Positions 2 through 19,010 of a stretch of DNA of 61,892 bases are shown one piece after another; within the stretch, counting starts at the first letter, position 1, and each line of letters opens with the position of its first letter. Position numbers and translations under genes: made by a program. The notes under the pieces are model-generated. The model saw nothing but the letters and a program-made list of their open reading frames with translations, did not search any database and was not told the origin of the DNA. The stretch covers positions 1-61,892 of the forward strand of contig JACDQK010000078.1 of the NCBI GenBank assembly GCA_015657645.1. Reading direction: 5' to 3'. Origin of the DNA: Novosphingobium sp. (GTDB lineage Bacteria > Pseudomonadota > Alphaproteobacteria > Sphingomonadales > Sphingomonadaceae).

Positions 2-181
2 GCGCGCGGCGTGGGCGTGCCGCCTTTGGCCAGGATCCGGGCGATGCTCGCGGCCAAGGCCAGCGCCAAGCCGACGGGCGAACTGGCCGCGCTGAGCGGT
101 GCCGGGCCGGCTGACTGGAACGGCGTGCCCCCGGCCGTGCAACGGCGCCGGCAGGCCTTGAAGGCGATGAAACCACAATGA
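2..181 (+). CDS. 3' end of an upstream polysaccharide-locus gene (partial, product unknown)
   Basis: Open frame from the window edge (ARGVGVPPLARIRAML...KAMKPQ*). Its TGA overlaps the ATG of the next gene (ATGA at 178-181). Confidence 0.55.
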   Translation, partial: ARGVGVPPLARIRAMLAAKASAKPTGELAALSGAGPADWNGVPPAVQRRRQALKAMKPQ

Positions 182-1431
182 CGGGTTTGGGGCGAGCGCC
201 AATTCTGCTGTTTCATCCGGGCAAGCAACATAGCCCGCAAACAGCGCTAGCTTTGCAGCGTCTGGGCCGCTTGAAAACCTACGCAACATCCATTTTCTAT
301 GATCGTGACCGATTCCCTTACTGGTTAGATCGCATTCCCGGCCACCTTGGGCGGCGACTGCATGCAGAGTTTAGCCGCTTCGCCCACCCTGAGATTGATC
401 CCGCATTGGTGAAAACTTGGGGTATGGCTGAGTGGCTTGAAAGAATTGCTCTAAGACTAGGTGCAATTCACTTATCATATCAGCTCGACAGACTCGGCAA
501 TCGCCTTTTCGCGAAGGGCTTGGTAGAAGAAATATCCTCGGATCAAGAGTTCGCTCTTTGGGGCTATAATGGGTCCTCTGTTGAAGCGTTTCGCATTGCG
601 AAAACCGCTAACCGAGTTTGTATTCTGGATCGAACGATTGGGGACTACAGATACTTCAATGAGGTGATGGCTCAACAGCAGGAATTGTATCCTAGGTATT
701 TTGAGCGTGACGAAAGATTCGTCCCTGAGGACAGGATCGAAATCGACGACCAGGAATACTCAATGGCAGATCATATTGTCGTTGGGTCTGATTACTGCAA
801 GAATACGATCGTAAAATACTCCGGAATTGAAGGCGTCGAAAACAAAATATCGGTATTGCCATATTGCGTTAACAACCATGATTTTATCTCTAGAGCAGAT
901 GGCCAGAGATCGACGCCGCAAGGGCCAATCAAATTCATCTTCGTGGGCCGAATAACCCCGAGAAAGGGGATCCACATATTGCTGGAAGCGTTCTCGAAGT
1001 TGCCTCCGGGGGCTGCTACTTTGACACTGCTGGGCAAAATGCTCATTCCGACCGACGCTTTTGCTCCTTATGCGGATAGGGTCGAGCATATCCCTTCTGT
1101 CGCGCCTGCGATGGTTGCTGAGGTCATGGCCAGGCATCACGTCCTGGTCTTGCCGAGCTTTTTTGAGGGTTCGGCCATTACGTTGCTTGAAGCTCTATCT
1201 TGCGGGCTCGGCATTATCCAATCTCCACAAGCGGGTAATGGGGCTAATCAGGACACTGGCATGGTCCTTAAGCAGAACACCGTCGAAGAGCTCTATGATG
1301 CTTTGCTGTACGCTGTGGACAATCGGGATCTCGTTGGTCGATGGATGAGTGCGGCAATAAGCGATGAAGATCGCTACTGCTTTGAGGGGTATCAGTCACG
1401 GGTCTCAAAGTTCATCGATAAAATTGAATAA
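178..1431 (+). CDS. Glycosyltransferase family 4 (GT-B fold)
   Basis: FIFVGRITPRKG and LPSFFEGSAITLLEALSCG (ExxxxxxxE) motifs; HPGKQHS N-terminus; AT-richer than the flanks. Confidence 0.9.
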   Translation: MTGLGRAPILLFHPGKQHSPQTALALQRLGRLKTYATSIFYDRDRFPYWLDRIPGHLGRRLHAEFSRFAHPEIDPALVKTWGMAEWLERIALRLGAIHLSYQLDRLGNRLFAKGLVEEISSDQEFALWGYNGSSVEAFRIAKTANRVCILDRTIGDYRYFNEVMAQQQELYPRYFERDERFVPEDRIEIDDQEYSMADHIVVGSDYCKNTIVKYSGIEGVENKISVLPYCVNNHDFISRADGQRSTPQGPIKFIFVGRITPRKGIHILLEAFSKLPPGAATLTLLGKMLIPTDAFAPYADRVEHIPSVAPAMVAEVMARHHVLVLPSFFEGSAITLLEALSCGLGIIQSPQAGNGANQDTGMVLKQNTVEELYDALLYAVDNRDLVGRWMSAAISDEDRYCFEGYQSRVSKFIDKIE

Positions 1432-2273
1432 TGATTGAAGCCCTGTTGATCATAACTGCGATTTTTATTTTGGCGGAATTAATTGTTCGCCGAAAGAAAG
1501 CTGCAGACTATATTGTATATAGTTCGAACCAATTTTTCGGATATTGTCCGAAGCCGATGTCATCTGGCTTGATGCGTGGACGCTATGACTGGTATATTAA
1601 TGAAATCGGTCTCCGCACCCATCATCGTTGTACCGAAATAAAAGGCGCTATTGCCTTGGTTGGCGATAGCATTGTCGAGGGTGGTTCTTATGTAAGGCAG
1701 GGTGAGACTTTGTCTTATCTGATCGAGAAGAAATTAGAACGCATTGTACATCCAATCGCAGCGAGTGGTTGGAGTTTATCCAATGAAATTGAATTCATAA
1801 AACAAAACTCCATGTTTCTTGAAGCTAGGCTTATCATCATAGTCGTGAATTCAGACGACTTGTGTGATGTGAACCCATGGTCAAGTGAATTCACACATCC
1901 TACGAAAACCCCGCTTTTCCGGTTGGTCTATTTGGTTAGAAGATTGGGGTGGCCCTATTTTTACAGGCTGAAGCATCGCACTAAGCCAGAAGCGTCGTCT
2001 GACGCCTGGATGACTCGCGTGCGATGGCTTCAAGAGCATGATGGAGCGCAATTGATCTGGGTGCTTTATCCAAATGCGGATGAATTGGTTGAAGGGGCGC
2101 GGCCTTGTGCAGCACTCTATGATGCTTTGGGCGCAGGGGCGGTGATTGTCGATCTTTCGGACCAAGTCGATTGGCAGCCAGATTGTTATGCAGATCGTCT
2201 GCATCCTAACGCTAAGGGCCGGGGCGTCTTGGCAAGCGTGATTGCGTCAGTGGCCGAGCGCGCAAGTTACTGA
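1431..2273 (+). CDS. Membrane-anchored SGNH/GDSL family esterase or O-acyltransferase
   Basis: N-terminal TM helix, block I VGDSIVEG, block III NSDD, block V DRLHPN. Confidence 0.75.
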   Translation: MIEALLIITAIFILAELIVRRKKAADYIVYSSNQFFGYCPKPMSSGLMRGRYDWYINEIGLRTHHRCTEIKGAIALVGDSIVEGGSYVRQGETLSYLIEKKLERIVHPIAASGWSLSNEIEFIKQNSMFLEARLIIIVVNSDDLCDVNPWSSEFTHPTKTPLFRLVYLVRRLGWPYFYRLKHRTKPEASSDAWMTRVRWLQEHDGAQLIWVLYPNADELVEGARPCAALYDALGAGAVIVDLSDQVDWQPDCYADRLHPNAKGRGVLASVIASVAERASY

Positions 2274-2288
2274 GCATAAAGAGGTATT

Positions 2289-3050
2289 ATGGATTTCTAC
2301 GTCAACACGCTCCGAACGCTGGTCAAAGAGGGCAAGATTGATCCGTCTGCGTCGACACTTGTTGTCGCGGGTGGTCCAAAAGATCGCGATGCTCTCATCT
2401 CCGCTGGATTCAGCAACGTGACCATCTCGAATCTGGATGTCCGGATGCGAGGCGATGAGTTCACGCCCTATGGATGGGCATTTGTTGATGCAGAAAACAT
2501 TCCTTTCGAATCTGATAGCTTCGAGAACGTGATCGAGCACATGGGACTTCACCATTGTGGTTCGCCTCACCGAGCTCTACTCGAGATGTACAGGGTGGCG
2601 AAGTCTTCGGTTGTTGTGTTCGAGAACCGCGAATCTTGGACGATGCGGCAGGCGGTCCGATTCGGAGCCGTGCCATCATTCGAACTCGATGCTGTTCGGG
2701 GTAACGATTATAAATTTGGCGGCTTTAGGAATACCAGCACTCCGAATTTCGTTTACCGCTGGACTGAGAGAGAAGTCGAAAAGACTATACTTTCAGCTGA
2801 TCCAAGTTATCTTAGCAAGATAGATTTCTTTTATAATCTTCGATTCCCGGAAGCGAGAATACAGGCGCTGCAAGGGATAAAGAAGTTGATATTTAAGGCT
2901 ATGCGAATGCCTTTTGCGATTTACGCAACGCTGCTTCCTAAGCAGGCTAATGAGTTTGGATTCTTTATCTCCAAGCGGGATAGGAAACTGCAGAGGTGGA
3001 TCGATGTAGAGACGGGCGGCTTATCTCCTGAGTTTATCGGCCAGGGCTGA
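2289..3050 (+). CDS. Class I SAM-dependent methyltransferase
   Basis: LVVAGG motif I variant; DAENIPFESDSFE; GLHHCGSPHRALLEMYRVAK; RBS GAGG upstream. Confidence 0.8.
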   Translation: MDFYVNTLRTLVKEGKIDPSASTLVVAGGPKDRDALISAGFSNVTISNLDVRMRGDEFTPYGWAFVDAENIPFESDSFENVIEHMGLHHCGSPHRALLEMYRVAKSSVVVFENRESWTMRQAVRFGAVPSFELDAVRGNDYKFGGFRNTSTPNFVYRWTEREVEKTILSADPSYLSKIDFFYNLRFPEARIQALQGIKKLIFKAMRMPFAIYATLLPKQANEFGFFISKRDRKLQRWIDVETGGLSPEFIGQG

Positions 3051-3078
3051 GGCGCTCCCAGAATCCATTTTCCTACAC

Positions 3079-3093
3079 TAACCAATATGGTTA
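3079..3093. promoter_or_regulatory. Palindrome TAACCA-ATA-TGGTTA, candidate regulator site (CtrA-like TAACC half-sites)
   Basis: Perfect 6-bp inverted repeat in the intergenic gap before 3128. Confidence 0.4.
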
Positions 3094-3127: not shown

Positions 3128-3550
3128 ATGCCCATTCCGATCATTTCCCCCAGCGGCTATGCCGCGACCCGTGCGGTGGCCTTTGCCGATGCCGATGGCA
3201 ATGCCGTGCTGGCCAGCGGCAGCTTGCCGCTGCCGGTCACGCTTGGTTCCGATCCGACCGTTCCGCTGGCCGGAACGACTGCCGTCAGCGGCACCTTCGG
3301 CCCTTATCTCCCAGCGCTCGGCCGCGAGGCGATGTTGACCCTGACCGGCACCTGGGCCGGCACGGTCCGCGTCCTGCGCTCAACCGACGGCGGCACGACC
3401 AAGCTGCCGCTGACCATCGCCGGAGCTGCCTGGGCCCAGTTCACCGCCAATTGCTGTGAGCCGATCTGGGAAGAAACCGAAGCGGCCGCCCGGCTGTGGC
3501 TGGAAGTCACCCTGTCGAGCGGTTCGCTGACCTACAGGCTCGCCCAATGA
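3128..3550 (+). CDS. Small beta-rich protein, phage/GTA structural adaptor-like (hypothetical)
   Basis: 140 aa from ATG 3128 with RBS; LTLTGTWAGTVRVLRSTDGGTT beta-sandwich pattern; no signal peptide; ATGA-coupled to the next gene. Confidence 0.7.
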   Translation: MPIPIISPSGYAATRAVAFADADGNAVLASGSLPLPVTLGSDPTVPLAGTTAVSGTFGPYLPALGREAMLTLTGTWAGTVRVLRSTDGGTTKLPLTIAGAAWAQFTANCCEPIWEETEAAARLWLEVTLSSGSLTYRLAQ

Positions 3551-5088
3551 GCGCCGATCTGATCGCGCGCGGGCTGGCCAGCCGTGCTGCCGCTTCCGTC
3601 AGGTCGCCCAACACTCAGGCGCTGATCCAGGCGATCCGCAACTGGGGCGCACTCGCCGCGCCGCGGCACCGGTTGATTTCAACGGACCTGCCGACAGTCA
3701 CGGTCGGGGCAGCCGGCGCTGCCTCAACCATCAATGCCCAGGGGGCAGGTGGGGCGACGGTGCCGCGTTTCGACAGCCGGCTGACCTATGTGGCCGGCCC
3801 GACCCGGCTGGCCGGAACGGCATTTCCGCTCAATGGCTATGCCGTCTCGCGCAATGGCTATTACGGGGCGGTCAATGCCCTGGGCGATCCGTTCTTCGGC
3901 ACGCAGTATCATGCCTTCGAATTCATCCACACCGGCACGCAGTTCGAAGTGCCGGTCACCGGGCACGGGGCCAACTCGGTCTACAACCTGCGGCTGCTGG
4001 TCGATGATGCCGTGGCCGCGACGGTGGTGGTGCCATCGGGCAACGGCAACCTCTATTTCGTGAGGTTCGTGTTCGGCGCCAGCCGGGCGCGGCGGATCCG
4101 GATCGAGACGGCCTCGGTCCCCACCAATGGCATCAACGTGGCCAGCGCAAGCGAAGTCAGCTCGGTTGCCCGGGCCTATCCGCTGGTTACCATCATGGGT
4201 GACAGCTTTGTCGAGGCTGCCGGTGCGGACTTCTCCGCCAATGGCGAGGCGGCGCTCGCCGCGCGTCTGCTGGGCCTGCGCGGTGCGATCGCCGGGGTCG
4301 GCGGGACTGGCCTGATCAGCACCGGCGGCAACAACTCGGCCGGCTTTCCCAAGGTCAACTTCTGCGACGCAGTGCGGATGACCGACCTGACCATGGCCGG
4401 CGTGGTCGATGCCCAGACTGGCGGGGCAGTCAGCCCGGCGCTCGGGGTTGTCATGGCCAGCGTCAATGATGGCGCCGCCAACGGCTTTGCCAGCGTTGCG
4501 GGGGCAACCTCGTTCGAAGATGCCATTACCCGGCAGGTCTTCAAGCTGATCGATGCCTGGGGCAGCGCCAATCCGGGCAAGCCGCTGGTGTTCTTCGGCC
4601 CGACCTGGCCCAATGCCAGCCCGACGCTCGACATCTTCCGCCAGCGCGATGCCGTGCAGCGAGCCGTACAGGGCGCGGGCGGGGTCCGCGCGAACGTCTG
4701 GTTTATCGACCGGCTCGGTCCCTCGGCGATCCTGCGTCATGGCGCGGTCGATACCTTGGCCACCACTGGCACTACCACCAGCGGCAGCGCGACGCTCACC
4801 GCGCTGGCCTCTACCGCCGGGGTTGTGGCCCAGTCTGGTATTTCCGGACCCGGCATCCCCGATGGTGCGGTGGTGCTGACGGTCGTGTCTGCGACCTCGG
4901 TCACGATCAGCCACCCCTGCACCGCCACCGGTACCGCTGTCGCCATTCGGTTCCGCAACAACCAGTCGGCGCTCTACACCTCGCTGGTGGCAGGGGACAC
5001 AACCCACCCGTCGCCCGCCGGGCACGAATACGACGCGCTGTGGATCGCTACCGAACTGCGCCGCCTGATCCTCAACGAATTCGCCTGA
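3547..5088 (+). CDS. SGNH/GDSL hydrolase-domain protein, tail/head-fibre-like
   Basis: Start MSADLIARGLA at ATGA overlap; VTIMGDSF (block I), SVND (III), GDTTHPSPAGH (V); N-terminal beta-sandwich region; no signal peptide. Confidence 0.75.
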   Translation: MSADLIARGLASRAAASVRSPNTQALIQAIRNWGALAAPRHRLISTDLPTVTVGAAGAASTINAQGAGGATVPRFDSRLTYVAGPTRLAGTAFPLNGYAVSRNGYYGAVNALGDPFFGTQYHAFEFIHTGTQFEVPVTGHGANSVYNLRLLVDDAVAATVVVPSGNGNLYFVRFVFGASRARRIRIETASVPTNGINVASASEVSSVARAYPLVTIMGDSFVEAAGADFSANGEAALAARLLGLRGAIAGVGGTGLISTGGNNSAGFPKVNFCDAVRMTDLTMAGVVDAQTGGAVSPALGVVMASVNDGAANGFASVAGATSFEDAITRQVFKLIDAWGSANPGKPLVFFGPTWPNASPTLDIFRQRDAVQRAVQGAGGVRANVWFIDRLGPSAILRHGAVDTLATTGTTTSGSATLTALASTAGVVAQSGISGPGIPDGAVVLTVVSATSVTISHPCTATGTAVAIRFRNNQSALYTSLVAGDTTHPSPAGHEYDALWIATELRRLILNEFA

Positions 5089-5105
5089 CGCGGGAGCCTT
5101 GACCC

Positions 5106-7187
5106 ATGCCTGATTTCCTGTTTGCCGAGTTTTCCGGCCAGAACATCAATTCCAGCACCAAGATCGTGCAGACCAATGGCCGCGATGTGGTTGGGCAGGG
5201 GGCGGGGCTTTATGTTGCCGATGCCCAGGCCAATGCCGCACTGATGGCAGCCCATCCGCGGCTGGTCGCGCGATCGAGCAACAACCGCTACTTCCGCGCC
5301 CTGCCCGACGGCGGCCGGATCCCGGTGGAACTGGCCGGGGCCAAGGCCGACGGCGTGACCGACGATGGCCCGGCGATCCGCGCTGCCGCCAACTATGCCC
5401 GGGCGATCGGCGCCCAGGGCATTCGCCTGGCCCCGGTGCGCTACCGGGTGGAAAAGATTCCGCCCAGCGAGCAGGTATTCAGCACCAATCCGCCGATCCA
5501 GCTGATCTCGACCGATGCGGGAATCGACGATTACGGCGGTGCGCAATTCACGCGCCAATCGGGTGGGCGCGGGCTCGTCCACGATCCGGCGACGCCGGGC
5601 ACGATCATCGAACTGCCGCTGGCCGCCAGCGTCACGGCGGGCAGCCGCGAAGTCCAGCTTCAGGCTGGCCTCGGTGCGCAGCTCATCGTCGGCGATTGGG
5701 TGATGTGGCAGCTCGGCGAGTTCCCATATGATCCGGCCGAGACCCCGAACTGGGACTTCGCCAGGGTCGAGGCGGTGACCGGCGACCTGGTCCGGCTCGA
5801 CAAGCCGGTGCCGCTCACGTTCTCACCCGCCAGCGTTGCCGGTGCCAATAAGCGGCTGCGCAAGCTGCGGATCCTGCGCGATCACGTGATCCGTGATCTG
5901 ACGCTCAGCGGCACCGATGTCGAGGATGGCATTTCGCTTTACGCCGCCCAGCGCGTGACGATCGAGCGGGTTGGCGGGGTCAATGTCGGGGCCGGAACCG
6001 TAGTCGCGCAGTATTGCGATGGCTTGACCATCAACGATTGCTGGCAGGACGGTTGGTGGTCGGGCCAGACCAGCTTCGGTGCGGCCTTCGCCTTTGCCGA
6101 AACGCGCAATTGCCTGCTCAACCGGCCGCGCGCGCGCGGCACGATCTCGCTGATCAAGGCCGAGGCCGGGGCTGAAGTGACCGTGATCGATGGCAACTTC
6201 GAGAACACCGCACTCAACGCGAGCGGCCAATCGCGCGGAACCGATGTAGTGGTAATCAACGTGCTGGGCAGTGCCAGCGTGACGGTTCACGATCTGACCG
6301 TCACCGGCTTTGGTGGCTATCGCCTGATCGAAACCAGCAATGGCCAGGCGGGCTATGAGGGGGTTGCGCTGCTTAGTGGGACGACCCGCCTGGAACATCC
6401 CAGCGCGCCGTTTTCGATTCCGCTCAGCGCCATCACCGGCACGCTCGATCTGACAATCGCTGGTACCCGCGAAATCTACAACTTCGCGCGCCTGCGGCAT
6501 TGGCGGCGGCGGTTTGTCCTGCGTGACGGCGAATATCTCTATGCCTACGGCCCGCCGGGGATTCTCGCCAAGGCCCGGGTCTATGCCTCGTCCGGGCTGA
6601 CAATCGGGGCGAGCAGCCAACTCACCGGGTTTTGGCTCGGGCGGCAAAGTGACAACGGCACCAATCTGGCCGATGGTCCCGCGGCCCAGCTACAGCCTGG
6701 CGTCGATGCCCATGTGCCATGCTTCGCAGGCACGGTAGGCGGCGCAAGCTGGACTTACCGCAACGAGCCGCTGGCGATTCTCTGCACTACCGCCGCGGCG
6801 GCAGGGCTCAACACCGCCAACGAATTCGTCGAGTTTGAAGGGTGGTTCGCCCAGCAGCAGGACCTGGATACCGTGATCTCCGAAGCTGCCATGCGCAGCG
6901 GCGGCGACGGACGCGATCCGCTTGAGGCGCTGTTCCCGGCCTATGATCTGCCGGCGATTGGCGCGGGCGCAACGCTGGCCGTGCTGCTGCCGATCCCGGA
7001 CATGGTGGCGGACGACTTCATTGACGCCGTGCGCATCACCGGCGGGCTTGGCGGGCTGGAACTGCGCGGTGCGGAGGCCCAGGTCGGGGCCGCGCGGCTG
7101 ACCTTTGTCAATCCCACAGCCGCTCCGATCGATCGTGCCGCGGCCGATCTGGCGGTCGCTTTCAGCCGCGCCATCGTGGGAAGATAG
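5106..7187 (+). CDS. Phage tailspike-like right-handed beta-helix protein (pectate_lyase_3-like start; putative polysaccharide depolymerase or adhesin)
   Basis: GAKADGVTDDGPAIRAA motif; beta-helix-like repeats (IRDLTLSG..DGISLY..RVTIERV..); C-terminal YDLPAIGAGAT...NPTAAPID domain resembling tailspike C-termini; RBS GGGAG; no signal peptide. Confidence 0.75.
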   Translation: MPDFLFAEFSGQNINSSTKIVQTNGRDVVGQGAGLYVADAQANAALMAAHPRLVARSSNNRYFRALPDGGRIPVELAGAKADGVTDDGPAIRAAANYARAIGAQGIRLAPVRYRVEKIPPSEQVFSTNPPIQLISTDAGIDDYGGAQFTRQSGGRGLVHDPATPGTIIELPLAASVTAGSREVQLQAGLGAQLIVGDWVMWQLGEFPYDPAETPNWDFARVEAVTGDLVRLDKPVPLTFSPASVAGANKRLRKLRILRDHVIRDLTLSGTDVEDGISLYAAQRVTIERVGGVNVGAGTVVAQYCDGLTINDCWQDGWWSGQTSFGAAFAFAETRNCLLNRPRARGTISLIKAEAGAEVTVIDGNFENTALNASGQSRGTDVVVINVLGSASVTVHDLTVTGFGGYRLIETSNGQAGYEGVALLSGTTRLEHPSAPFSIPLSAITGTLDLTIAGTREIYNFARLRHWRRRFVLRDGEYLYAYGPPGILAKARVYASSGLTIGASSQLTGFWLGRQSDNGTNLADGPAAQLQPGVDAHVPCFAGTVGGASWTYRNEPLAILCTTAAAAGLNTANEFVEFEGWFAQQQDLDTVISEAAMRSGGDGRDPLEALFPAYDLPAIGAGATLAVLLPIPDMVADDFIDAVRITGGLGGLELRGAEAQVGAARLTFVNPTAAPIDRAAADLAVAFSRAIVGR

Positions 7188-7259: not shown

Positions 7260-9950
7260 ATGAATCAGAAGACCAAGCCGCGGATTGCGCTACTGTTTGC
7301 CCAGTTTGCCGCCTATCACACCGATCGCTGCGAAGCCGTCGCCCGGCGGCTGGGCGATCGGTGCGAGGTGCTGGCGGTCGAGGTAGCGACCACCTCGGCG
7401 ACCTATGCCTGGGAGCCGTCCGGGCCCACCGCCCATGCCCGCAAGCTGACGCTGTTTCCCGGCCGCTCGTATGACGATGTCCCGCCGCTGCAGCGCTTCT
7501 GGGCTCAGCTCCGCGCCCTGCGGAGCTGCCAGACTGTCTTCATCGGCATCGGCTATAACGAGCCCGATGTGATCCTGCTGTCCTGGACCCTGCGGTTGCT
7601 GGGCGTGCAGGTGATTGCCTTCAACGATTCCAAGTTTGACGACAAGCTTCGGCGGGCTAGTTTCGAGCTGTTCAAGCAGTTCGTGCTGCAGGCCTATTCC
7701 GGCGCGATTGTCGCCGGCCCGCGCCAGCGGGACTATCTCCGGTTTCTGGGCTTCCGGCGCCGCCGCTTGCTGCTGGGCTATGACACGGTCAGCGTTGGCC
7801 GGGTTCAAGGGTTAGCGGAAACGGCGGTGCCTGACTTTGCCGAACGGCCGCTGGTCTTTGTCGGGCGGTTCGTCGCCAAGAAGAACCTGCCGCTGCTGAT
7901 TGATGGCTATGCGGCCTATGCCGCAGCGGCCGGACCCGCTGCGCGCAAGCTCGTCCTGGCCGGTTCCGGTCCGGACGAAGTGAGCCTGCGCGACCAGGTT
8001 GCAGCGCTTGGGCTGACCGAACAGGTCGAGTTCACGGGTTTCCTGAAGGCCGATGATGTAGCCCGCCTGTTGGTCAGGGCCCTCGCCCTGGTCCTGCCCA
8101 GTTCGGAAGAGCAATGGGGCCTGGTGGTAAACGAGGCGCTGGCGGTCGGCGTACCGGTCATCCTCTCGACCCAGGCCGGATCGCGCGAGGCACTGGTCTG
8201 CAATCTGGTGAATGGCTTTCTGGTCGAGCCGAACTCGGCCGAGGGTATTGCCGCCGCCATGGCGGTGCTTGGCCGCGACGAGCAGACTTGGCAGCGCATG
8301 GCCGAGGCTTCGCGGGCACGGGCCTGGTTGGGCGATGCCGATCGCACAGCCGAAGCCGTCGATGCGATGCTGTTCCCGGCCAATCTGGCGGCTAGTGCCG
8401 ATGTCGCCCGGTTCGAGGCGGCCCTGTCGGGCCAGCCGCAGGCTGATCCGGCCCTGGCGGCGAAGGCGGCTGCCCCTGGTTATTGGCAGCAATACTATGC
8501 CGCCGCTGCCGCGCCCGAAGCGCCATCGGACTTTGCCCGCTTCGCCAGCGAACGCCTGGCGAGTTATCCGACCATCATCGAACTGGGCTGCGGCAATGGC
8601 CGGGATTCGCTGCACTTCCTCAAGGAGGGGTGGCAGGTCCGCGCGCTCGATGCTTCGACCGCCGCAGTCGAATCCTGCCGCCGCCGCGCGGCCGAGGCCG
8701 GACATGACCCGGCGCGCGGCCAGTTCACCAGCGGCAGCGTCGCCGATCCGGCGGCCTGGCAAGGGCTGGCAGCGGGGACGGACGGACCCATCGGGATCTA
8801 CGCCCGCTTCCTGTTCCATGCGATCGACGATGCGACCCAAGCGGCATTGCTGGACGAAGCAGCCGGCCTGCTTGCCGCGCGCGACGGGGCATTGGTGGCG
8901 GAATTCCGCACCCCGGCCGATGAACCGCTGCAGAAGGTCGAGGCACCGCATTACCGCCGCTATGTCGATCCGGACCAGTTCTGCGCCGAACTGGAACGGC
9001 GCGGACTGGCCGTAATCTATCGCCGCGAAGGGCAGGGCATGGCCCGCTACCGCGACGAGGATGCCCATGTTGTGCGGATCGTTGCGATACCGGCCGTGAC
9101 CTATGCCAATGGCACACCTTCGCCGGGATTGGAGCGGCTGCACGCGGCCACAAAACGGCTGGCGGCGCAGTTCGTTGATTACTGCCGCGAAGAAGGCCTG
9201 CGCTCGTTCCTGGTGGCCGGTTCGGCGCTGGGGGCGATCCGGCACGGAGATATCATCCCCTGGGACGACGACGTCGACCTTGGCATGCTGCGCGAGGATT
9301 ACGTCGCGCTGCTGGCTGCCTGGGAGCGCCGCCCCCTGCCAGGGCTGACCCTGCAACACCACGGCACCGAGGCCGGCTATCCGCTGGCCTATGCCAAGCT
9401 GCGGATCGACGGGACCCGGGTGCATGAACGGACCTTTGCCGGCACCGGTTTTCACGAGGGGATCGGGCTCGACATCTTCCCCTTCGATGCCCTGCCGCGC
9501 TCTGCCCTGGTGCGGCGGCTGCAGCACTGGGGGCTGCTGGCGGTCAACATCTTCGTCATGTCTTATAGCCCGGAGGTGACGCACAATTCCGGCAAGCCGC
9601 TGCTCAATGCCCTGCGCGGCGCGGCGCTGGCGCTGCGCCCGGTCCTGCCGATCCGGGCGCTGATCGGCCTGCGCGAATGGCTCAGCAACCCGCGCGGGAT
9701 AGCCCGCAGCAGCGAACGGGCCTGCTTCGAGATGTGGGGCATCCGCTTTGCCCGCCGCACCTGGGTGCCGGAGGAGTGGCTCGTTCCGACCCGGCCGGCC
9801 CCATTTGGTGATGGTGAGATGCCGGTGCCGGGCCAGGCCGAGGCCTATCTCAAGGCATCGTTCGGCGATTATCAGGCTTTCCCACCCGAAGATCGCCGCC
9901 ACCCGCTCCACGTCACCGCCGCCGAATTCGGCCGGCCCGACAACGTTTGA
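7260..9950 (+). CDS. Tri-domain fusion: GT4 glycosyltransferase + class I SAM methyltransferase + LicD-family phosphotransferase
   Basis: One 896-aa ORF: FVGRFVAKKN and LPSSEEQWGLVVNEA (GT4); IIELGCGNGRDS and YARFLFHAI (MTase); GSALGAIRHGDIIPWDDDVDLGM and LDIFPFD (LicD). Confidence 0.85.
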   Translation: MNQKTKPRIALLFAQFAAYHTDRCEAVARRLGDRCEVLAVEVATTSATYAWEPSGPTAHARKLTLFPGRSYDDVPPLQRFWAQLRALRSCQTVFIGIGYNEPDVILLSWTLRLLGVQVIAFNDSKFDDKLRRASFELFKQFVLQAYSGAIVAGPRQRDYLRFLGFRRRRLLLGYDTVSVGRVQGLAETAVPDFAERPLVFVGRFVAKKNLPLLIDGYAAYAAAAGPAARKLVLAGSGPDEVSLRDQVAALGLTEQVEFTGFLKADDVARLLVRALALVLPSSEEQWGLVVNEALAVGVPVILSTQAGSREALVCNLVNGFLVEPNSAEGIAAAMAVLGRDEQTWQRMAEASRARAWLGDADRTAEAVDAMLFPANLAASADVARFEAALSGQPQADPALAAKAAAPGYWQQYYAAAAAPEAPSDFARFASERLASYPTIIELGCGNGRDSLHFLKEGWQVRALDASTAAVESCRRRAAEAGHDPARGQFTSGSVADPAAWQGLAAGTDGPIGIYARFLFHAIDDATQAALLDEAAGLLAARDGALVAEFRTPADEPLQKVEAPHYRRYVDPDQFCAELERRGLAVIYRREGQGMARYRDEDAHVVRIVAIPAVTYANGTPSPGLERLHAATKRLAAQFVDYCREEGLRSFLVAGSALGAIRHGDIIPWDDDVDLGMLREDYVALLAAWERRPLPGLTLQHHGTEAGYPLAYAKLRIDGTRVHERTFAGTGFHEGIGLDIFPFDALPRSALVRRLQHWGLLAVNIFVMSYSPEVTHNSGKPLLNALRGAALALRPVLPIRALIGLREWLSNPRGIARSSERACFEMWGIRFARRTWVPEEWLVPTRPAPFGDGEMPVPGQAEAYLKASFGDYQAFPPEDRRHPLHVTAAEFGRPDNV

Positions 9951-9962
9951 CGCGCCGGCGGC

Positions 9963-11115
9963 ATGGCCATGGCACCGCTCCTTTCGGGCAAGCGCATCGG
10001 CCTCCTCACCGCTTCGGCTTCGCGGCTGGGTGGCGGGGTGTTCGAAGCGGTGGTGATCCAGGCTGATCTGATCCGCAGCCTGGGGGGTGAGCCGGTGATT
10101 GTGGCCCTGGCAGACCGGTTCAGCGCCGAAGACCGTCCGCGTTTCGGCGCCAGCGAAGTGATCCATGTGCCGGTCCGCGGCCCGGCGCAGATCGGCTATG
10201 CGCCGCAGCTGATCGAAGCGCTGCTGGCAGCGCGGCTGGATTGCCTGCACCTCCACGGCATCTGGATGTCATCCATCCCACGCCGCGCGGCGCTGGCGTG
10301 AGGCGACCGGGCGGGCCAGCCTGATCTCGCCGCACGGCATGCTCGATCCCTGGATCACGGCGCGGGGGCGCTGGAAAAAGGCGCTGGCGCGGCGCGGCTA
10401 TGAGCGGGCCGGTTGGCGCGCCGCCAGCGCTTTTCACGCCCTGACCCAGCGCGAGGCCGGTGATATCGCGCGCGAGAGCGGCCGGAGCGACAGCCTGGTC
10501 ATTCCCAATGCCGGCCCGCCGGTCAGCGCGCCGGTCACCGCCGCCCGCGCGCCGCACCTGTTGTTCCTCAGCCGGATTCATCCCAAGAAGAACCTGGCGC
10601 CGCTGATCGCCGCCTGGCGTGAACTGGTTGGCGCAGGCGCCTTGCCTGAAGCTGCCCGGCTGACCCTGGCGGGCTGGGGCGAGCCAGGCGATGTCGCCGC
10701 GCTCGAAGCCCTGCTTCGCGATGCCCCGCCATCGCTGCACTTCATCGGGCCGTGCTTCGGTGCGGACAAGGCGCGCGAACTGGCCGAGGCGCGCTTTGTC
10801 GTCCTGCCCTCGCTCAGCGAAGGCCTGCCGATGACCTTGCTTGAGGCCTGGGCCGCGGGCACCCCGACGCTTCAGACCAGCGAGTGCAACCTGCCCGAAG
10901 GGTTTGCGGCCGGCGCCGCGCTCGACTGCGGAATGGACCAGGCCTCGCTCAAAGCTGCGCTGGCCGAGGCCCTGACCATGCCCGATGCGCGCTGGCTGGA
11001 CATGGCCCGCGCTGCGCAGGGCCTTGCCAGCGGGCCCTTTTCGGGCGAACGGGTGGCGCAGCAATGGGGCGAAGCCTATGCCCGCCTGATCGCCGCACCG
11101 GGAGCCGTATCATGA
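9963..11115 (+). CDS. Glycosyltransferase family 4 (apparent +1 frameshift near 10270)
   Basis: Removing one base joins HLHGIWM to YPSHAARRWREATGRASLISPHGMLDPW; FLSRIHPKKN and LPSLSEGLPMTLLEA motifs. Confidence 0.85.
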
Positions 11116-11678
11116 CCCCGCTCGATGCCCGCCAGACCAAGCCGCTCGAAGGTGGCGCCAGCTTCTCGCTGGGCAACCGGCTGCTGCGGGTCTGCTGGGG
11201 CCTGACCTGGTTGCTGCTGGCGCGCTTCACCCCGCCTCCGTTGCACGCCTGGCGGCGGCTGGTGCTGCGGGCCTTCGGGGCCAAGGTCGGCAGCGGCGCG
11301 CGGGTCCATGGCAGCGTGCGGATCTGGCTGCCAGCCAATCTGGAGCTGGGCGAGCACTGCCTGATCGGCCCCGGCGCGCAGCTTTATAACCAGGGTAGGA
11401 TCACGATCGGCGCGCGCAGCGTGGTCTCGCAGGGCGCGCATATTTGCGCCAGCACCCACGACATTGCCGATCCGCAATTCCAGCTGCTGCTTCGCCCGGT
11501 GACCATCGGCGCGCAGGCCTGGGTCGCGGCCGAGGCCTTTGTCGGGCCGGGCGTGAGCGTGGGTGACCGCGCTGTAGTCGGCGCGCGAGCCGCCCTGTTC
11601 GAAGATGCCGCGCCCGACGGGGTCTATTCAGGCAATCCCGCGCGGTTGATCAAGCAGCGCCAGCTCCGCGCGCCATGA
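11112..11678 (+). CDS. WcaF-like hexapeptide-repeat polysaccharide O-acetyltransferase
   Basis: FSLGNRLLR...WRRLVLRAFGAKVG, SQGAHICASTHD, GNPARLIK; ATGA overlap with the upstream gene. Confidence 0.85.
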   Translation: MTPLDARQTKPLEGGASFSLGNRLLRVCWGLTWLLLARFTPPPLHAWRRLVLRAFGAKVGSGARVHGSVRIWLPANLELGEHCLIGPGAQLYNQGRITIGARSVVSQGAHICASTHDIADPQFQLLLRPVTIGAQAWVAAEAFVGPGVSVGDRAVVGARAALFEDAAPDGVYSGNPARLIKQRQLRAP

Positions 11679-12853
11679 GCCCGGCAGCGCTGCGCCGCCG
11701 CCTGCTTGATCTGGTCGGGACGCGCCGCCTGGCTGAATTTGCCGACCTGTCTGCGGAGAATCTCGTCGCACTGGAGCGGATGGCCGTGCAGCACCGTCTG
11801 CAACCCTTGCTCCATCACCAGCACCGCACCCATCCGGACTTACCGCCAGTCCTTGCCGAAGCCTGGAGCGCGGCCTTTCGCAGCCAGGCGCTGCTGGCGC
11901 TGAGCCAGCGGGCCGAGCTGGACCGGACCGTGGCCCTGCTGCGCGCGGGCGGTTTTGCGCCGTTGGCGCTCAAGGGCGCCTGGCTCAGCCGTTATGCCTA
12001 TCCGCACCCAGCGCTGCGGCCACTGCGCGATATCGACCTGCTGCTTGATCCCGATAGCGTGATCCCGGCCTTCGCGCGGCTGGAGGCCGAAGGCTGCCGC
12101 CAGATCGAGCCCTCCGAACTGCCGCTGGCTGACCTCATCCGCACCGACAAGCACCTGCCGCCGCTGCTCTCGCCAGGCGGCACGGTGGTCGAACTGCACC
12201 ACCACCTGTGGGAGCCTGATGGCCGGCTTGATCACGCCAGTCCGGCGGCAATCGATGCGGCGGTGCGGGCTGCGGCCGTGACCGAGGTGGACGGTCTCGC
12301 ATACCCCGCACCAATCGACATGCTGGCGCACCTGATTGCCCACGCGGTCTACAGCCACCGGCTTGATTGCGGACCACTGTTGCTCGCGGATATCGACTTC
12401 CTGCTGCGAGTCCGCCCGATCGATTGGGTGCAGTTCTGGGACCGCGCTGCGGCGGAGGGCTGGGCCAACGGTGCGCGCCTGGTCCTAGCCCTCGTTGAGC
12501 GACACCGCACTGGGGCTACGATCGACTGGGGCGATCAGGCACCGGTTCCCGCTGCGCTGCTTGACGATGCGGCTGACCTGCTGCTGCAGGAACTGGACCG
12601 GCGGCAGAGTGCCGGGGTCTTGGCCAGCCTCCAGCGCCGCGGCTGGCAGGGGCTGCTCGACCGCGTGACGGGTCGCCGCCGGGTCGCGGCCGGGCCCGCG
12701 GTGCAGCGCGACATGGCAGCGGCGGGGGGCTTCCTTAGCTGGGCCGGCTCGCGCTGGCGGCGTACGGCCGGCGATCTGGCGCACCGCGACACCCGCCAGC
12801 AGGCACGGTCACTAGCGCGGCTAAGCACCTGGCTTGATCGCCCAGCGGACTAG
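11675..12853 (+). CDS. Nucleotidyltransferase family protein (NTP_transf_5-like)
   Basis: LKGAWLSRYAYPHPALRPLRDIDLL and VELHHHL motifs. Confidence 0.8.
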   Translation: MSPAALRRRLLDLVGTRRLAEFADLSAENLVALERMAVQHRLQPLLHHQHRTHPDLPPVLAEAWSAAFRSQALLALSQRAELDRTVALLRAGGFAPLALKGAWLSRYAYPHPALRPLRDIDLLLDPDSVIPAFARLEAEGCRQIEPSELPLADLIRTDKHLPPLLSPGGTVVELHHHLWEPDGRLDHASPAAIDAAVRAAAVTEVDGLAYPAPIDMLAHLIAHAVYSHRLDCGPLLLADIDFLLRVRPIDWVQFWDRAAAEGWANGARLVLALVERHRTGATIDWGDQAPVPAALLDDAADLLLQELDRRQSAGVLASLQRRGWQGLLDRVTGRRRVAAGPAVQRDMAAAGGFLSWAGSRWRRTAGDLAHRDTRQQARSLARLSTWLDRPAD

Positions 12854-14043
12854 CGTCGCGTCAGGGCAATCTCGTCGATGCTGACTTCGCCTGCGCCAGG
12901 GGCGAGCCACAATTGCAGCAGGGGCGCTTCGCAGGCGCCGCCATGGGTCAGGTCGGCAATGCCGCGTCCGCCATCGACCGCGCCGTTTAGCGGGTTGGCC
13001 AGGACTCGTTCAGGCCGGCAGCTCAGGCTGGCCGCAATCCGCGATGGCCGTGCGGGGCCGGTCGCAGCCTCGCGCCAGGTCAGGCGGTAAGTGCCGGGTG
13101 CCAGGACAATCCGCTGCATCGTGAGGGGCACCAGTGTCGCCGCCGTGCTGCTGGCGCGCAGGACGTGCTGGCCGAAGCTGGCGCTGACCACGTCGGCCAG
13201 CAGCGCGCCATTGCCGGGGAACTGCCAGTCAAACGGCGTCTTGCCGCCCGCTTCGCCGGTCTGCTCGAAACTGGCATCGTTGACCAGGCCAGGCGCAGCG
13301 GCGCGCGGGCACTGGCTGGACCAGAGCTGGCTGGCCAGTGCGGCCTGCGTCTGGGCCAGGCTGACCACCATCGGCGCGATCGCATCGCAGCCCAGCTTGC
13401 TGCCCAGACCTGCCGCGGCAATCAGCACCGTGGCGCGCCCGGCCAGGCGATCGAGCGGTTGGCCCGGCTGCGGCTGGGCATAGGCGCGAGCCCAGTTGGC
13501 GCCGCTGGCAATCTGCTGGGCGATCAGCATCTGCCCGCGCGGATCGCCTTCGAACCGGGCGGAGAGCTGGTCGATCGCCGGGGCTTCGGGCCACTGGCGA
13601 GCAATCGCGCCAAAGCGGGTGCCGGCCCGGTTCAGGTCACCAGCCGCCAGCGCGATCTGCAGCCAGTAGACCTGCGTTGCAGCATCGCGCCAGCCGAGCT
13701 TGGCCGAAGCGCGAAAGGCATTGGCCGCCCCGCCCGCATCGCCCTGGGCCAGCCGCGCCGTGCCGAGCAGGCCGGCGGCCTGCGGACCAAGCGGATCACG
13801 GCGGACCAGCGCTTCGGCGAGCGGGCCGATCTGCCCAGCCTTGCCAGCCAGCAGCAGCGCCTTGCTCTCGCTGGCCAGTGCCTGTTGGCGGAAAGGTTCG
13901 GGGACGCGGGCCGCAGCGCCGGGATCATTCGTCGTCGCCCGATCGAAGGCCAGTGCCGCACTCAGCCCGGCATAGCCTAGCGCCGCGACGCCAACTGCGG
14001 CGAGGACCGCCTTCCGCCTGTCAGCGGTGCGCGGTCCGGCCAT
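12850..14043 (-). CDS. Membrane-anchored periplasmic protein with TPR-like helices and a C-terminal carbohydrate-binding-like beta-sandwich (EPS-locus associated)
   Basis: N-terminal TM, Ala-rich helical repeats, LVNDASFE...PFDW...LAPGTYRL pattern; last gene of the export arm. Confidence 0.6.
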   Translation of the reverse strand: MAGPRTADRRKAVLAAVGVAALGYAGLSAALAFDRATTNDPGAAARVPEPFRQQALASESKALLLAGKAGQIGPLAEALVRRDPLGPQAAGLLGTARLAQGDAGGAANAFRASAKLGWRDAATQVYWLQIALAAGDLNRAGTRFGAIARQWPEAPAIDQLSARFEGDPRGQMLIAQQIASGANWARAYAQPQPGQPLDRLAGRATVLIAAAGLGSKLGCDAIAPMVVSLAQTQAALASQLWSSQCPRAAAPGLVNDASFEQTGEAGGKTPFDWQFPGNGALLADVVSASFGQHVLRASSTAATLVPLTMQRIVLAPGTYRLTWREAATGPARPSRIAASLSCRPERVLANPLNGAVDGGRGIADLTHGGACEAPLLQLWLAPGAGEVSIDEIALTRR

Positions 14044-14044
14044 A

Positions 14045-16253
14045 CTAGTCGCGCTCCCGGTCGTTGTGTTCGTAGGTGTAGTACTGGTAGCCGTAGTATT
14101 CGGAGTAGCGGTTGCCCGAGCGGGTCGGGTCGAACTTGGTCAGCACCGCACCCAGCAGGATCGGCCGCATCGCGCGCAGGCGGCGCAGCGCGGTCTTGAG
14201 CGAGCCGCGGCGGCTGCGGTCGCTTTCGACCACGAAGATCACCCCGTCGGCCAGCGCCGACAGCGCCGGAGCATCGGCCAGGCCGAGGATCGGCGGGCTG
14301 TCGATCACCACAACGTCGAAAGTGCGGGCCAGCTCCTGGACGACATGCTCCATCCGCGGCGAGGAGACCAGTTCGGTCGGGCTGGGCGGGATCGGGCCCG
14401 AGGCGATGACGAACAGGTTTTCCTGCGGGGTCGCCTGGATCGCGCTTTCCACGGGATCGCCCGAGGTCAAAAGGTCGGTCAGGCCGCGGTCGTTGGCCAG
14501 GCCGAAGCGGCGGTGGATTGACGGGCGGCGCAAGTCGGCATCGATCAGCGCAACCTTGCGGCCCATCCGCGCCAGGCTGGCGGCGGTTGCAAAGCTGGTC
14601 GTGGTCTTGCCTTCGGCCGACTGGGCCGAGGTGACCAGCATGACTTGCGGCAGGCCAGCCGAAGTCGAATAGAGCAGCGCGGCGCGCAGCGAGTTGTAGG
14701 CTTCGGAAACCGGCGACTTGGGATCGCCCATCTCGCTGTCGGGATCGCGGCCCGTGGCCTTGGGAACCACGCCCAGCAGCGGCAGGCGCAGCTTGGATTC
14801 GACGTCTTCCGGCACGCGGATCGCGTCGTCCAGCTGGTCCTTGATGAACAGGGTCAGCGCTGCCAGACCGACGCCGATCAGCAGCGCCAGCAGCAGGTTC
14901 TTGAACATGTTGGGCGAGGTCGGGACGCTCGGCCGCTCGGCGCTATCGATGATCGACACGTTGCTCGAGCTGATGCCGGCCGTGGCGTTGAGCTCGTTGT
15001 AGCGCTTCAGCAGCCCGTCATAGAGCGTGCGGTTGGTATCGGCCTCGCGCTTGAGCAGGCCGTACTGCACATTCTTGTCCTGCTCGCGCAGGTTCTCACC
15101 CTTGATGCTTTCAAGCTTGGCCAGCAGCGCCTGCTCGGTACCCTGCGCGGCCAGCATTTCGGCCCGGATCGAATTGCGGACCGACTGCGCGGCGGATTGC
15201 AGTTCGGAATCGAGCCTGGCCAGCTGGGCGCGCTTTTCGCGCACGGTCGGATAGTCTTCCAGGTGCTTGGACAGTTCCCGCTGCAACTCGGCCTGGGTGG
15301 TGGCGCGGTTGGTCATCAGGCTGGAGACAGTCGAATTGCCCAGCACTTCGCGGCTCGACAGCAGCGGAACCGACGAGATAGCGCGCCAGCGCCCTTCCGC
15401 GGCCACCCGGTCGGCCGTGGCCTGGTTGGCCGCGAGATTGAGCTGGAGCAGGCTGGCGGAAGTGACCGATCCGCCGGTGGCGGCTTCGCCGTTTTCGCCG
15501 GCGGCATCGCCCGTGCGGATCAGGCCGGTGCTGCGCGCATAGTCATTGAGATTGCGTTCGGCCTGCTCGACCCGCTGCTTGGCTTCGGTCATCTGGTTGG
15601 AGACGAATTCGCGGGCGTAGGACGAGCTGTCGAACTTGCGCTGCAGGTTCGACTGAATGAACTCGCCGGCAAAGGCATTGGCAATTTCGGCCGACATGGC
15701 GGGATCGGCACTTTCGAACGAGATCGTGACGATGCGCGAATCGCGCGGCAGGGTGACCTTGAGGTTGCCTGCAGCAGGCCAACCACCTGGTTGCGCATCC
15801 CTTCGGCCGTGGCACCAGCGCCGGCGCTTTCGATTCCATCGCCGTGTAGAATTCAGGCCGTGTCTGCAGCTTCAGCTTCTGCGCGACCCGCTGGGCGAGG
15901 CCGCGGCTGCGCAGGATATCGGTCTGCGTCTTGAGGAAGCGATCAACGTCGTAAAGGTTCGATTCCTGCGCGGTCTGGTCATCGTTATCGCCGATCACAC
16001 GGTCGCTGCTGTCGTTGATCTGGATCGTCGTATTGGCCGTGTAGCGCGGCGTGTCGAGCAGGGTGATCACCAGTGCCGCACCCAGCGCGACGAGGATGAT
16101 TGCACTGATCAGCAGCAGGTTGCTGCGGATCGCGGCGGCGATGTAGCGCAGATCGAATGTGCCGCGCGTCATCGCCTGGAAGACTTCCGGCTCGTCGTGC
16201 AGGTCAACCGAATTGGTCGGCTGGATATCGCGCAGGATCGGGTGATCGTTCAT
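14045..16253 (-). CDS. wzc: Polysaccharide co-polymerase / tyrosine autokinase (Wzc/GumC family); two apparent 1-bp deletions near 15770-15825
   Basis: N-terminal TM and PRYTANTTIQI; second TM; Walker A VTSAQSAEGKTTT; DADLRRP; DSPPILGLAD; Tyr-rich tail YSEYYGYQYYTY. Confidence 0.9.
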
Positions 16254-16285
16254 GACTAGTTCGAGGCTCCGCCAAGGCTGCGCAT

Positions 16286-16996
16286 TCAGCGAACCACGTA
16301 GAAGAGGTTAAGCAAGGGGGCGGTCTCGCGCACGTCGCGCCAGAAGCCCTTGGAGCCCGAATAGCCGACCACGACCGTGTCGCCGCCGATGATCTGCGGA
16401 TCGTCGGCCCGGCCACTGCGGATCTGGTCGAGGTCGAATCGGGCACCCAGGCGGCGCCCGTCGATCACCCGGAAAACCATCACTTCGCTGTTCTTGGCGA
16501 CGCGATTGGGGCTGCCGGCCTGAGCAATCGCGGCGAGCAAGGTGGTGGTGACATCGGCCTCGTAAACGCCGGGATCCTCGACCTGGCCTTCCACCGCGAA
16601 GCGCGCCTTGGCCCGCTCGGTAATGCTGACTGAAACCTGCGGATCGCGGATGAAGCGCGCACCCAGCCGCCGCGCAATCTCGGCCCGCAGCTCTTCCGGG
16701 CTGACCCCGGCGGCAATCACTTGCCCGATCAGCGGAACCTGCACAAAGCCAGTGCTATCGACGACATAGTCGGTGCGCGAAAGCTCGCTCTCACCAAACA
16801 CGCTGATTGCCAGCTTGTCACCGGCGCGGATGCGCTGGGCGACCAGATCATCCATCGCCTTGACGGGGATCACGTCATAGGCTGCCTGCCCGGCCGGCAA
16901 GGGATTGTCGCGCGCTGCCAAGGGCGCGGTGCCGACTACCGTAAGGCTAAATGCGCACAGCGCCACGGACAGATCGCGATAGCGCCTGCGTGTCAT
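16286..16996 (-). CDS. Polysaccharide export OPX protein (Wza/GumB-like, short form)
   Basis: IRAGDKLAISVFGE...VPLIGQVIAAG...DPQVSV (Poly_export) plus SLBB region VEGQVEDPGVY. Confidence 0.85.
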   Translation of the reverse strand: MTRRRYRDLSVALCAFSLTVVGTAPLAARDNPLPAGQAAYDVIPVKAMDDLVAQRIRAGDKLAISVFGESELSRTDYVVDSTGFVQVPLIGQVIAAGVSPEELRAEIARRLGARFIRDPQVSVSITERAKARFAVEGQVEDPGVYEADVTTTLLAAIAQAGSPNRVAKNSEVMVFRVIDGRRLGARFDLDQIRSGRADDPQIIGGDTVVVGYSGSKGFWRDVRETAPLLNLFYVVR

Positions 16997-18360: not shown

Positions 18361-18363
18361 AGC

Positions 18364-18396: not shown

Positions 18397-18425
18397 GGGA
18401 AAAGTGGCTTGCGACGCAGCGTCAC

Positions 18426-18992: not shown

Positions 18993-19010
18993 GATGCTGC
19001 TTTGCAACAA

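What the first reader, a model, noticed from the sequence alone, without database searches (positions are those of the whole stretch)
3128..7187. Phage/GTA receptor-binding-like trio (adaptor + SGNH fibre + beta-helix tailspike) inside a capsule locus
Seen: three adjacent co-oriented genes (the first two ATGA-coupled) sit between polysaccharide-modifying genes. They encode a 140-aa beta-rich protein, an SGNH esterase starting with a short MSADLIARGLA peptide, and a 693-aa protein with GAKADGVTDD, beta-helix repeats and a tailspike-type C-domain. None has a Sec/Tat signal, codon style is host-like, and the window has no capsid, terminase, portal or integrase. Established: beta-helix depolymerases and SGNH deacetylases are common enzyme types on phage tailspikes. 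In Rhodobacter capsulatus the GTA head spike genes (ghsA/ghsB) lie outside the main GTA cluster and bind the recipient capsule, and many Sphingomonadales carry RcGTA-like clusters. Inference: these may be domesticated particle fibres co-inherited with the capsule genes, so that GTA or tailocin particles always match the cell's own acetylated capsule (a linked lock-and-key for kin-directed gene transfer). An alternative is a lysis-released capsule-shedding module.
Basis: partly seen in the sequence, partly recalled or inferred. Interest (0 to 1): 0.82.

Follow-up and report, generated by a model that had tools for sequence, protein, structure and literature searches.

The report
GTA spike genes inside capsule locus
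Three genes parked in a sphingomonad's capsule gene cluster share an upstream DNA signal with its gene-transfer-agent (GTA) lysis gene, and likely build sugar-cutting spikes for the virus-like particles that ferry DNA between cells, so the particle's predicted capsule key would be inherited together with the capsule itself.

Summary
The trio is real. Gene A (140 aa) is a predicted jelly-roll protein, closest in fold to the pentameric prophage proteins XepA/YomS. In all 74 loci examined the next gene begins with a short conserved peptide or a Leu-rich variant, while its body differs (SGNH esterases, pectate-lyase-like or unrelated proteins). The strongest new evidence is upstream: TTTCCTAC precedes A in 69 of 70 loci versus 1 of 913 neighbouring genes. 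It also precedes GTA holins (26/30), the gafA-like activator (32/32) and stand-alone ghsA spike-base genes. In this genome the full signal occurs twice: before the trio and before the GTA holin. An RcGTA-like head-tail cluster lies on another contig. A is not a GhsA-family protein, but shares its N-terminal arm with GhsA-like proteins, rarely co-occurs with ghsA (3/42), and its phage relatives sit in virion modules. Best reading: a second type of GTA spike module lodged in capsule loci. Against: 7 of 42 carriers lack the GTA hub gene, attachment to particles is untested, and capsule matching is suggested, not shown.

The parts
3069..3076 (+). TTTCCTAC element, likely the -35-region signal of GTA late/accessory promoters
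   Evidence: 69/70 A loci vs 1/913 control genes; 65/73 metagenome loci; 26/30 holins, 32/32 DUF6456 genes
3079..3093 (.). TAACC-N5-GGTTA inverted repeat, likely a regulator site (CtrA-half-site-like or XRE repressor; unassigned)
   Evidence: 56/70 A loci vs 36/913 controls; also before the GTA small terminase gene and the gafA-like gene of this genome; 11/25 small-terminase, 19/30 holin, 28/32 DUF6456 upstream regions
3128..3550 (+). Gene A, 140 aa: N-terminal arm (about residues 1-42) plus jelly-roll domain (38-140); predicted spike base/adaptor
   Evidence: AlphaFold pLDDT 90; XepA Z 10.4 rmsd 3.4 over 99, YomS Z 10.2 rmsd 3.8 over 103; arm matches arm of GhsA-like proteins, hhalign 88%, E 2.8e-6
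3547..3579 (+). N-terminal peptide of B (MSADLIARGLA); predicted docking tag for A
   Evidence: DxxARG-type start in 62/74 loci and a Leu-rich variant in 12/74 while the rest of the protein differs
3547..5088 (+). Gene B, 513 aa: peptide + head-decoration-like region + SGNH esterase (Ser220, Asp484, His487); likely polysaccharide O-acetyl esterase fibre
   Evidence: phrog_9703 'head decoration' E 9.4e-11 at 103-260; Lipase_GDSL_2 E 7.4e-5, below cut-off; motifs
5106..7187 (+). Gene C, 693 aa: likely beta-helix tailspike-like glycanase without the docking peptide
   Evidence: weak PHROG tailspike/depolymerase hits at the N-terminus; beta-helix look-alikes 0.92-0.95; residues 5-119 match residues 22-136 of single-cargo proteins that carry the peptide themselves
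178..3050 (+). Low-GC capsule cassette upstream (GT4, SGNH, methyltransferase); context
7260..20380 (.). Polysaccharide modification and export genes downstream; context

Best explanation
The trio is likely an accessory spike operon of the host's RcGTA-like gene transfer agent: it carries the same upstream signal as the GTA holin, so it would be switched on only in cells that make particles and lyse, with A predicted to form a ring-shaped base on the particle and B and C predicted to hang from it as capsule-binding, capsule-trimming fibres. Shown: gene order, conserved base with exchangeable cargo, shared upstream signal, GTA cluster in the genome, jelly-roll model, intact esterase motifs. Inferred: the signal is read by the GafA-like activator or CtrA; A oligomerises and anchors by its N-terminal arm (capsid vertex most likely); B docks by its N-terminal peptide; C rides on B; B removes O-acetyl groups and C binds or cuts the backbone so that particles adsorb to and cross the capsule of kin cells. 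Release needs no signal peptide because holin and lysozyme of the same regulon lyse the producer.
For: Composite TTTCCTAC-N12-GGTT occurs twice in the 3.0-Mb genome: before the trio and before GTA_holin_3TM. TTTCCTAC also precedes the lysozyme and DUF6456 (gafA-like) genes here, and in relatives 26/30 holins, 32/32 DUF6456 genes, 15/30 ghsA-family genes, while 12 of the 15 without it lie inside the GTA cluster, and 9/9 close arm-bearing GhsA-like genes. In R. capsulatus head spike, tail fibre and lysis genes are co-triggered late genes (PMC9638019, passages). Head-tail cluster on contig C154. Arm of A shared with proteins that hit the Rcc01079 spike-base model weakly (E 2.8e-5, 24.3 bits, cut-off 28) and are followed by related SGNH proteins in glycosyltransferase loci. 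A-type and NF048002-type bases co-occur in 3/42 genomes vs 61/259. Phage relatives of the A domain lie between major head and tail genes and in two viral contigs directly precede SGNH proteins, one with the same peptide.
Against: 7 of 42 A-positive genomes have no TIGR02218 match; 4 of 5 tested have no match to the GTA capsid protein and 5 of 5 no TIGR02217, yet keep an intact A, a downstream gene and the signal. Enrichment with the GTA hub is modest: 35/42 vs 175/259, Fisher p 0.046 without kinship correction. A has no NF048002 match and B lacks the GhsB (I/L-G)n peptide. The best fold match, XepA, is reported absent from mature PBSX particles (PMC6834076, passages). The head-tail promoter itself lacks TTTCCTAC (0/25). 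No expression or particle data.
Confidence: 0.68

Rival explanations
1. The operon belongs to the GTA regulon but works off the particle: lysing cells release A-B-C as a free enzyme complex that strips capsule or biofilm matrix, helping dispersal or clearing a path for particles.
For: Genomes without detectable capsid or tail genes keep A, cargo, the signal, the DUF6456 activator (5/5) and the holin (7/7). RcGTA TspA is a detachable, biofilm-degrading tailspike encoded outside the cluster (bioRxiv 10.64898/2026.07.19.739414, abstract and Results parts 1 and 3). XepA is exported and not in mature particles.
Against: A free enzyme needs no conserved base or docking peptide; near-exclusion with ghsA and the arm shared with GhsA-like proteins suggest the same slot on the particle; retention of holin and activator shows the whole scattered regulon lingers after cluster loss.
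Confidence: 0.2
2. The genes are ordinary capsule-modifying enzymes or a cell-surface appendage (self-polymerising jelly-roll with tip enzymes) expressed with the capsule locus, the phage-like ancestry being incidental.
For: 58/74 loci have a GT4/GT2-cluster gene within 6 kb; Ena pilus subunits are among the fold matches (Z 8.3 and 7.8); B-type SGNH and beta-helix folds are common in polysaccharide loci (established knowledge).
Against: No export signal; the upstream signal is absent from 912/913 neighbouring genes and shared with GTA lysis genes; 16/74 loci lie away from such glycosyltransferases but 69/70 keep the signal.
Confidence: 0.07
3. A decaying prophage remnant with no current function.
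For: Phage relatives exist; a few loci have short, probably truncated cargo (132-260 aa).
Against: Single copy, intact in 42/301 family genomes, host-like codon use, no phage genes around it, esterase motifs kept in 29/30 complete SGNH cargoes, conserved upstream signal.
Confidence: 0.05

Closest known systems
RcGTA head spike GhsA/GhsB (Rcc01079/Rcc01080) of Rhodobacter capsulatus
   Same: Small jelly-roll base gene followed by a fibre gene with a short N-terminal peptide; outside the head-tail cluster; co-regulated with lysis genes; fibre aimed at capsule (PMC7296036 and PMC9638019 passages; PMC10218006 abstract).
   Different: A is 140 aa with an arm and no NF048002 match; the peptide is DxxARGLA rather than IALGLGLGL; cargo are enzyme-like (SGNH, beta-helix), sometimes two; the operon lies inside the capsule locus.
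Bacillus prophage proteins XepA and YomS
   Same: Best fold matches (Z 10.4 and 10.2) and language-model look-alike (PF27453, 0.91, 165 features); pentameric, proposed to bind capsid vertices (PMC6834076 passages).
   Different: 9-12% identity; XepA lies in a lytic cassette and is absent from mature particles; no coupled fibre gene described in the passages read.
HFTV1 capsid turret (base hexamer + deacetylase-bearing head trimer)
   Same: Base matches A's fold weakly (Z 7.6, rmsd 4.0, 94 aligned); base carries a glycan deacetylase-like head (PMC12494034 passages).
   Different: Archaeal virus; Z is in the range of common jelly rolls; head is a polysaccharide-deacetylase type, not SGNH.
RcGTA TspA detachable tailspike
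   Same: GafA-controlled accessory gene outside the cluster acting on the host's own polysaccharide.
   Different: Binds the baseplate, single gene, reported confined to Rhodobacterales; homology to C not tested.

Membership tests
RcGTA head spike (GhsA/GhsB) | Base protein with jelly-roll fold | tested here: met
   Model pLDDT 90, all-beta; top matches are jelly rolls
RcGTA head spike (GhsA/GhsB) | Base belongs to the Rcc01079 family (NF048002) | tested here: not met
   No NCBIfam match for A; no NF048002 match in G000
RcGTA head spike (GhsA/GhsB) | Structural match to the solved GhsA chain | tested here: inconclusive
   Not among the 50 rows shown; unlisted is not excluded
RcGTA head spike (GhsA/GhsB) | Fibre starts with alternating (I/L)-G peptide | tested here: not met
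   B and relatives start DxxARGLA; ghsA-family loci show G-F/G-L starts
RcGTA head spike (GhsA/GhsB) | Base gene directly followed by fibre gene, outside the head-tail cluster, in a genome with that cluster | tested here: met
   54/74 ATGA overlaps; cluster on C154
RcGTA head spike (GhsA/GhsB) | Co-regulated with GTA lysis genes | tested here: met
   At sequence level only: shared upstream signal; expression not measured
RcGTA head spike (GhsA/GhsB) | Pentamer on capsid vertices holding one fibre; fibre binds capsule | not testable with these tools
   Needs cryo-EM and binding assays
XepA/YomS | Shared jelly-roll fold | tested here: met
   Z 10.4/10.2, 2 units above the next unrelated rows
XepA/YomS | Location in a prophage lytic cassette | tested here: not met
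   Neighbours are polysaccharide genes
SGNH/GDSL hydrolase (gene B) | Blocks GDS, G, N and DxxH | tested here: met
   Pfam score below the curated cut-off
Beta-helix tailspike depolymerase (gene C) | Right-handed beta-helix, trimer, glycanase activity | tested here: inconclusive
   Look-alikes only; fold without alignment failed

The most novel reading that the evidence does not exclude
Sphingomonadaceae GTAs use interchangeable spike platforms (GhsA, arm-GhsA, and this XepA-like base) whose enzyme-tipped cargo is stored inside the capsule locus under its own GTA promoter, so that capsule type and particle specificity are inherited as one block and restrict gene transfer to same-capsule kin; in lineages that lost the capsid genes the activator, holin and spike operon persist as a capsid-free lysis-and-shedding programme.
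Probability: 0.3. Interest if true: 0.86.

Novelty: new variant of a known kind. Interest (0 to 1): 0.72.

Why it matters
What sets the recipient range of GTAs, and how selection could keep a costly, lytic gene-donation system, are open questions. A receptor-binding module physically linked to the capsule genes offers a testable mechanism for kin-restricted transfer. The TTTCCTAC signal gives a simple way to list scattered GTA accessory genes in Sphingomonadaceae, an order in which GTA genes are under strong translational selection (PMC9765227 passages) but for which my searches found no head-spike study. The cargo set is also a source of candidate capsule esterases and depolymerases.

Tried and rejected
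Complex prediction of 3 x A with 3 x the first 36 residues of B gave no verdict (score 0.01); it counts neither way. PF13547 (GTA TIM barrel) has no match in this genome, although TIGR02217/02218/02215 do. Annotated phage genomes gave one weak A relative (a Microcystis phage gene near terminase and portal) and none for B. A DNA pattern for the A-B junction found nothing in viral contigs. The 13 viral loci found with P0260 are marginal (E 4e-7 to 1e-3) and were not used. Sigma-70 and terminator scans show nothing at the trio's start. A first composite-motif count used the wrong spacer and returned 0; corrected. The GGAA-N4-TTCC RogA site and ACTATG GafY element of Caulobacter do not resemble either signal, so the reader protein is unassigned. 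Tailocin origin: nothing found pointing to it. Literature: eight searches found no paper on this family, signal or location; the library lacks most subscription papers, and Supplementary Table 4 of PMC7296036 and Fig. S7 of PMC9638019, which may bear on fold relatives and promoter motifs, were not seen. Earlier scan notes: none. Sequencing-run tools were not used.
Full report
Observation. The three ORFs are as described: A 3128-3550, B 3547-5088, C 5106-7187, host-like in composition and set among polysaccharide genes. A has no family match; B matches PHROG 9703 'head decoration' (E 9.4e-11) and weakly GDSL; C has only weak N-terminal tailspike hits. Close relatives of A that carry a name are from Novosphingobium and other Sphingomonadaceae.

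Conserved base, exchangeable cargo. A has 192 relatives in the 90% database and 500 representatives at E<=0.001; many share only the domain from about residue 40. From 74 genome loci I dropped L074 (broken match) and added the window: 74 loci. The gene after A overlaps it by ATGA in 54 and starts with DxxARG-type peptide in 62 (one counted by hand) or a looser Leu-rich variant in 12; 58 of 78 scorable metagenome loci show such a start. Behind the peptide the proteins split into two SGNH groups (19 and 12 loci), a large tailspike-like group (18), a pectate-lyase-like group (5), smaller groups and singletons. C lacks the peptide, but its first 115 residues match the region that directly follows the peptide in single-cargo loci, so two-cargo loci look like an esterase inserted between base and spike; that C rides on B is inference.

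Fold. With a 141-row alignment A folds at pLDDT 90 into an arm plus jelly roll. Best matches: XepA (Z 10.4, rmsd 3.4, 99 aligned), YomS (10.2, 3.8, 103), KHP40 cement (8.6), Ena3A (8.3), HFTV1 turret (7.6); Foldseek gave nothing under E 0.001 in the PDB and only uncharacterised or unnamed viral proteins in BFVD; the Atlas also lists XepA (0.91). XepA and YomS are pentamers proposed to bind capsid vertices, but XepA is absent from mature particles (PMC6834076, passages). In viral contigs the A domain lies between the major head gene and tail genes (L079; similar order by inspection in many of the 39 loci), and in L177 and L182 it directly precedes SGNH proteins, L177 with an ATGA overlap and the same peptide. 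L076 also has the pair but at a contig end.

GTA cluster and spike bases. Contig C154 carries terminase, portal, protease, capsid, connector, tail tube, TIGR02217 and TIGR02218 genes in RcGTA order. Among 301 family genomes, 42 have a strong A match (E<1e-30; 13 further genomes with weak matches counted as negative), 210 have TIGR02218 and 64 NF048002. A-positive genomes have the hub in 35/42 vs 175/259, and NF048002 in 3/42 vs 61/259 (p 0.046 and 0.014, not corrected for kinship). Weak A matches revealed 116-aa proteins sharing A's arm (hhalign 88%, E 2.8e-6) but ending in a GhsA-like domain (NF048002 E 2.8e-5, below cut-off), followed by SGNH proteins 27-30% identical to A-locus cargo, flanked by glycosyltransferase-like genes in the two loci I read. 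At locus L017 the third gene resembles fibres that follow ghsA inside GTA clusters (39-47% over about 100 aa).

The upstream signal. TTTCCTAC lies within 130 nt of A's start in 69 of 70 loci with enough sequence, against 1 of 913 other called genes in the same loci (my ORF caller is crude), and in 65 of 73 metagenome loci. An inverted repeat TAACC-N5-GGTT follows in 56 of 70 (controls 36/913). In this genome TTTCCTAC occurs 41 times, including before the lysozyme, GTA_holin_3TM, DUF6456 and two small-terminase-like genes; DUF6456 is the annotation of gafA in PMC9765227 (passages). The composite with GGTT 11-13 nt later occurs twice: holin and trio. In relatives: 26/30 holins, 32/32 DUF6456 genes, 0/25 small-terminase genes of head-tail clusters, of which 11 have the inverted repeat. 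Of the best 30 ghsA-family loci 15 have it; 12 of the other 15 sit inside the GTA cluster after the capsid gene, where no promoter is needed. Of 14 arm-bearing loci the 9 closest have both elements, 4 have neither, 1 has TTTCCTAC. In R. capsulatus, head spike, tail fibre and lysis genes are late genes triggered by CtrA and GafA (PMC9638019, passages). Which protein reads each element here is unknown; likeness of TAACCAT to CtrA half-sites is recalled, not tested.

Results against. Seven A-positive genomes lack the hub gene; 4 of 5 tested lack the GTA capsid match and 5 of 5 TIGR02217 (99-100% complete), yet A, a downstream gene (one only 215 aa) and the signal are intact. They also keep DUF6456 (5/5) and the holin (7/7). 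This fits either lingering of a scattered regulon or a particle-free role, as for detachable TspA. A fails two GhsA/GhsB membership features, so it works like a head spike but is not filed as one.

Capsule linkage. 58 of 74 loci have a GT4/GT2-cluster gene within 6 kb; 16 do not (no genome-wide baseline). In 47 loci with enough flank, neighbour-gene overlap is about twice as high for same-cargo pairs at equal A identity (0.19 vs 0.09 at 50-60%; partial r 0.31, 0/2000 permutations). But cargo types cluster on the A tree (8 changes, minimum 6; quick tree, 72 rows, many open forks), A identity is a poor control for kinship, and neighbours include non-capsule genes, so co-inheritance alone may explain it. 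The closest relative (A 93%, B 85%, C 86%) shares the downstream genes but not the low-GC upstream cassette: capsule genes can change without a cargo swap. Lock-and-key is therefore plausible, not shown.

Verdict. A real, conserved operon, most likely a second type of GTA spike module (0.68), with a particle-free shedding role as main rival (0.2). New variant of a known kind; no description found in eight literature searches. Papers seen as passages: PMC7296036 (plus a supplement search that did not reach Table 4), PMC12494034, PMC6834076, PMC5721377, PMC11150451, PMC9632790, PMC9765227, PMC9638019; abstract only: PMC10218006; abstract and two of three Results parts: the TspA preprint.

Noticed in passing
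G000 C11:866-1764 (L282): DUF6456 (gafA-like) gene divergent from an XRE helix-turn-helix gene, recalling Caulobacter rogA-gafYZ; both upstream elements lie between them and are conserved in 28-32 of 32 relatives.
   Followed up: partly
G000, e.g. C29, C53, C97, C164, C181, C187, C294; window 32687 (-): About a dozen intergenic copies of a TTTTCCTACA...GCCGCCTG element, and several TTGACA + TAACC-N5-GGTT sites with no clear gene (C40, C90, C200, C205, C215, C244): a repeat family or non-coding RNAs possibly tied to the GTA regulon.
   Followed up: no
G000 C149:11399-12088 and C22:643-1320: Stand-alone proteins resembling the GTA small terminase (by inspection) with the TTTCCTAC signal upstream.
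   Followed up: no
L097, L101, L103-L113: Third spike-base type: shared arm plus GhsA-like domain, followed by SGNH cargo starting M.ALH.PRP, in glycosyltransferase loci.
   Followed up: partly
L124, L128, L139-L141, L143, L148, L149: ghsA-family gene and a fibre gene sit inside the GTA cluster directly after the major capsid gene.
   Followed up: partly
G127, G155, G259, G071, G165, G279, G100: Near-complete genomes without the GTA hub gene that keep holin, activator (5 tested) and spike operon; in four of them holin and DUF6456 lie about 6-7 kb apart.
   Followed up: partly
window 9963-11115, 14045-16259, 21982-24526: A GT4 gene, wzc and leuS each appear split into two ORFs; since leuS is essential these may be assembly errors.
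   Followed up: no
window 178-3050 and 7260-9950: Low-GC three-gene capsule cassette absent at this position in the closest relative; an 896-aa GT4-methyltransferase-LicD fusion shared with it.
   Followed up: no
L075: Listed as viral but looks chromosomal: base and peptide-tagged cargo near rhamnose-pathway-like genes and an XRE-DUF6456 pair.
   Followed up: no
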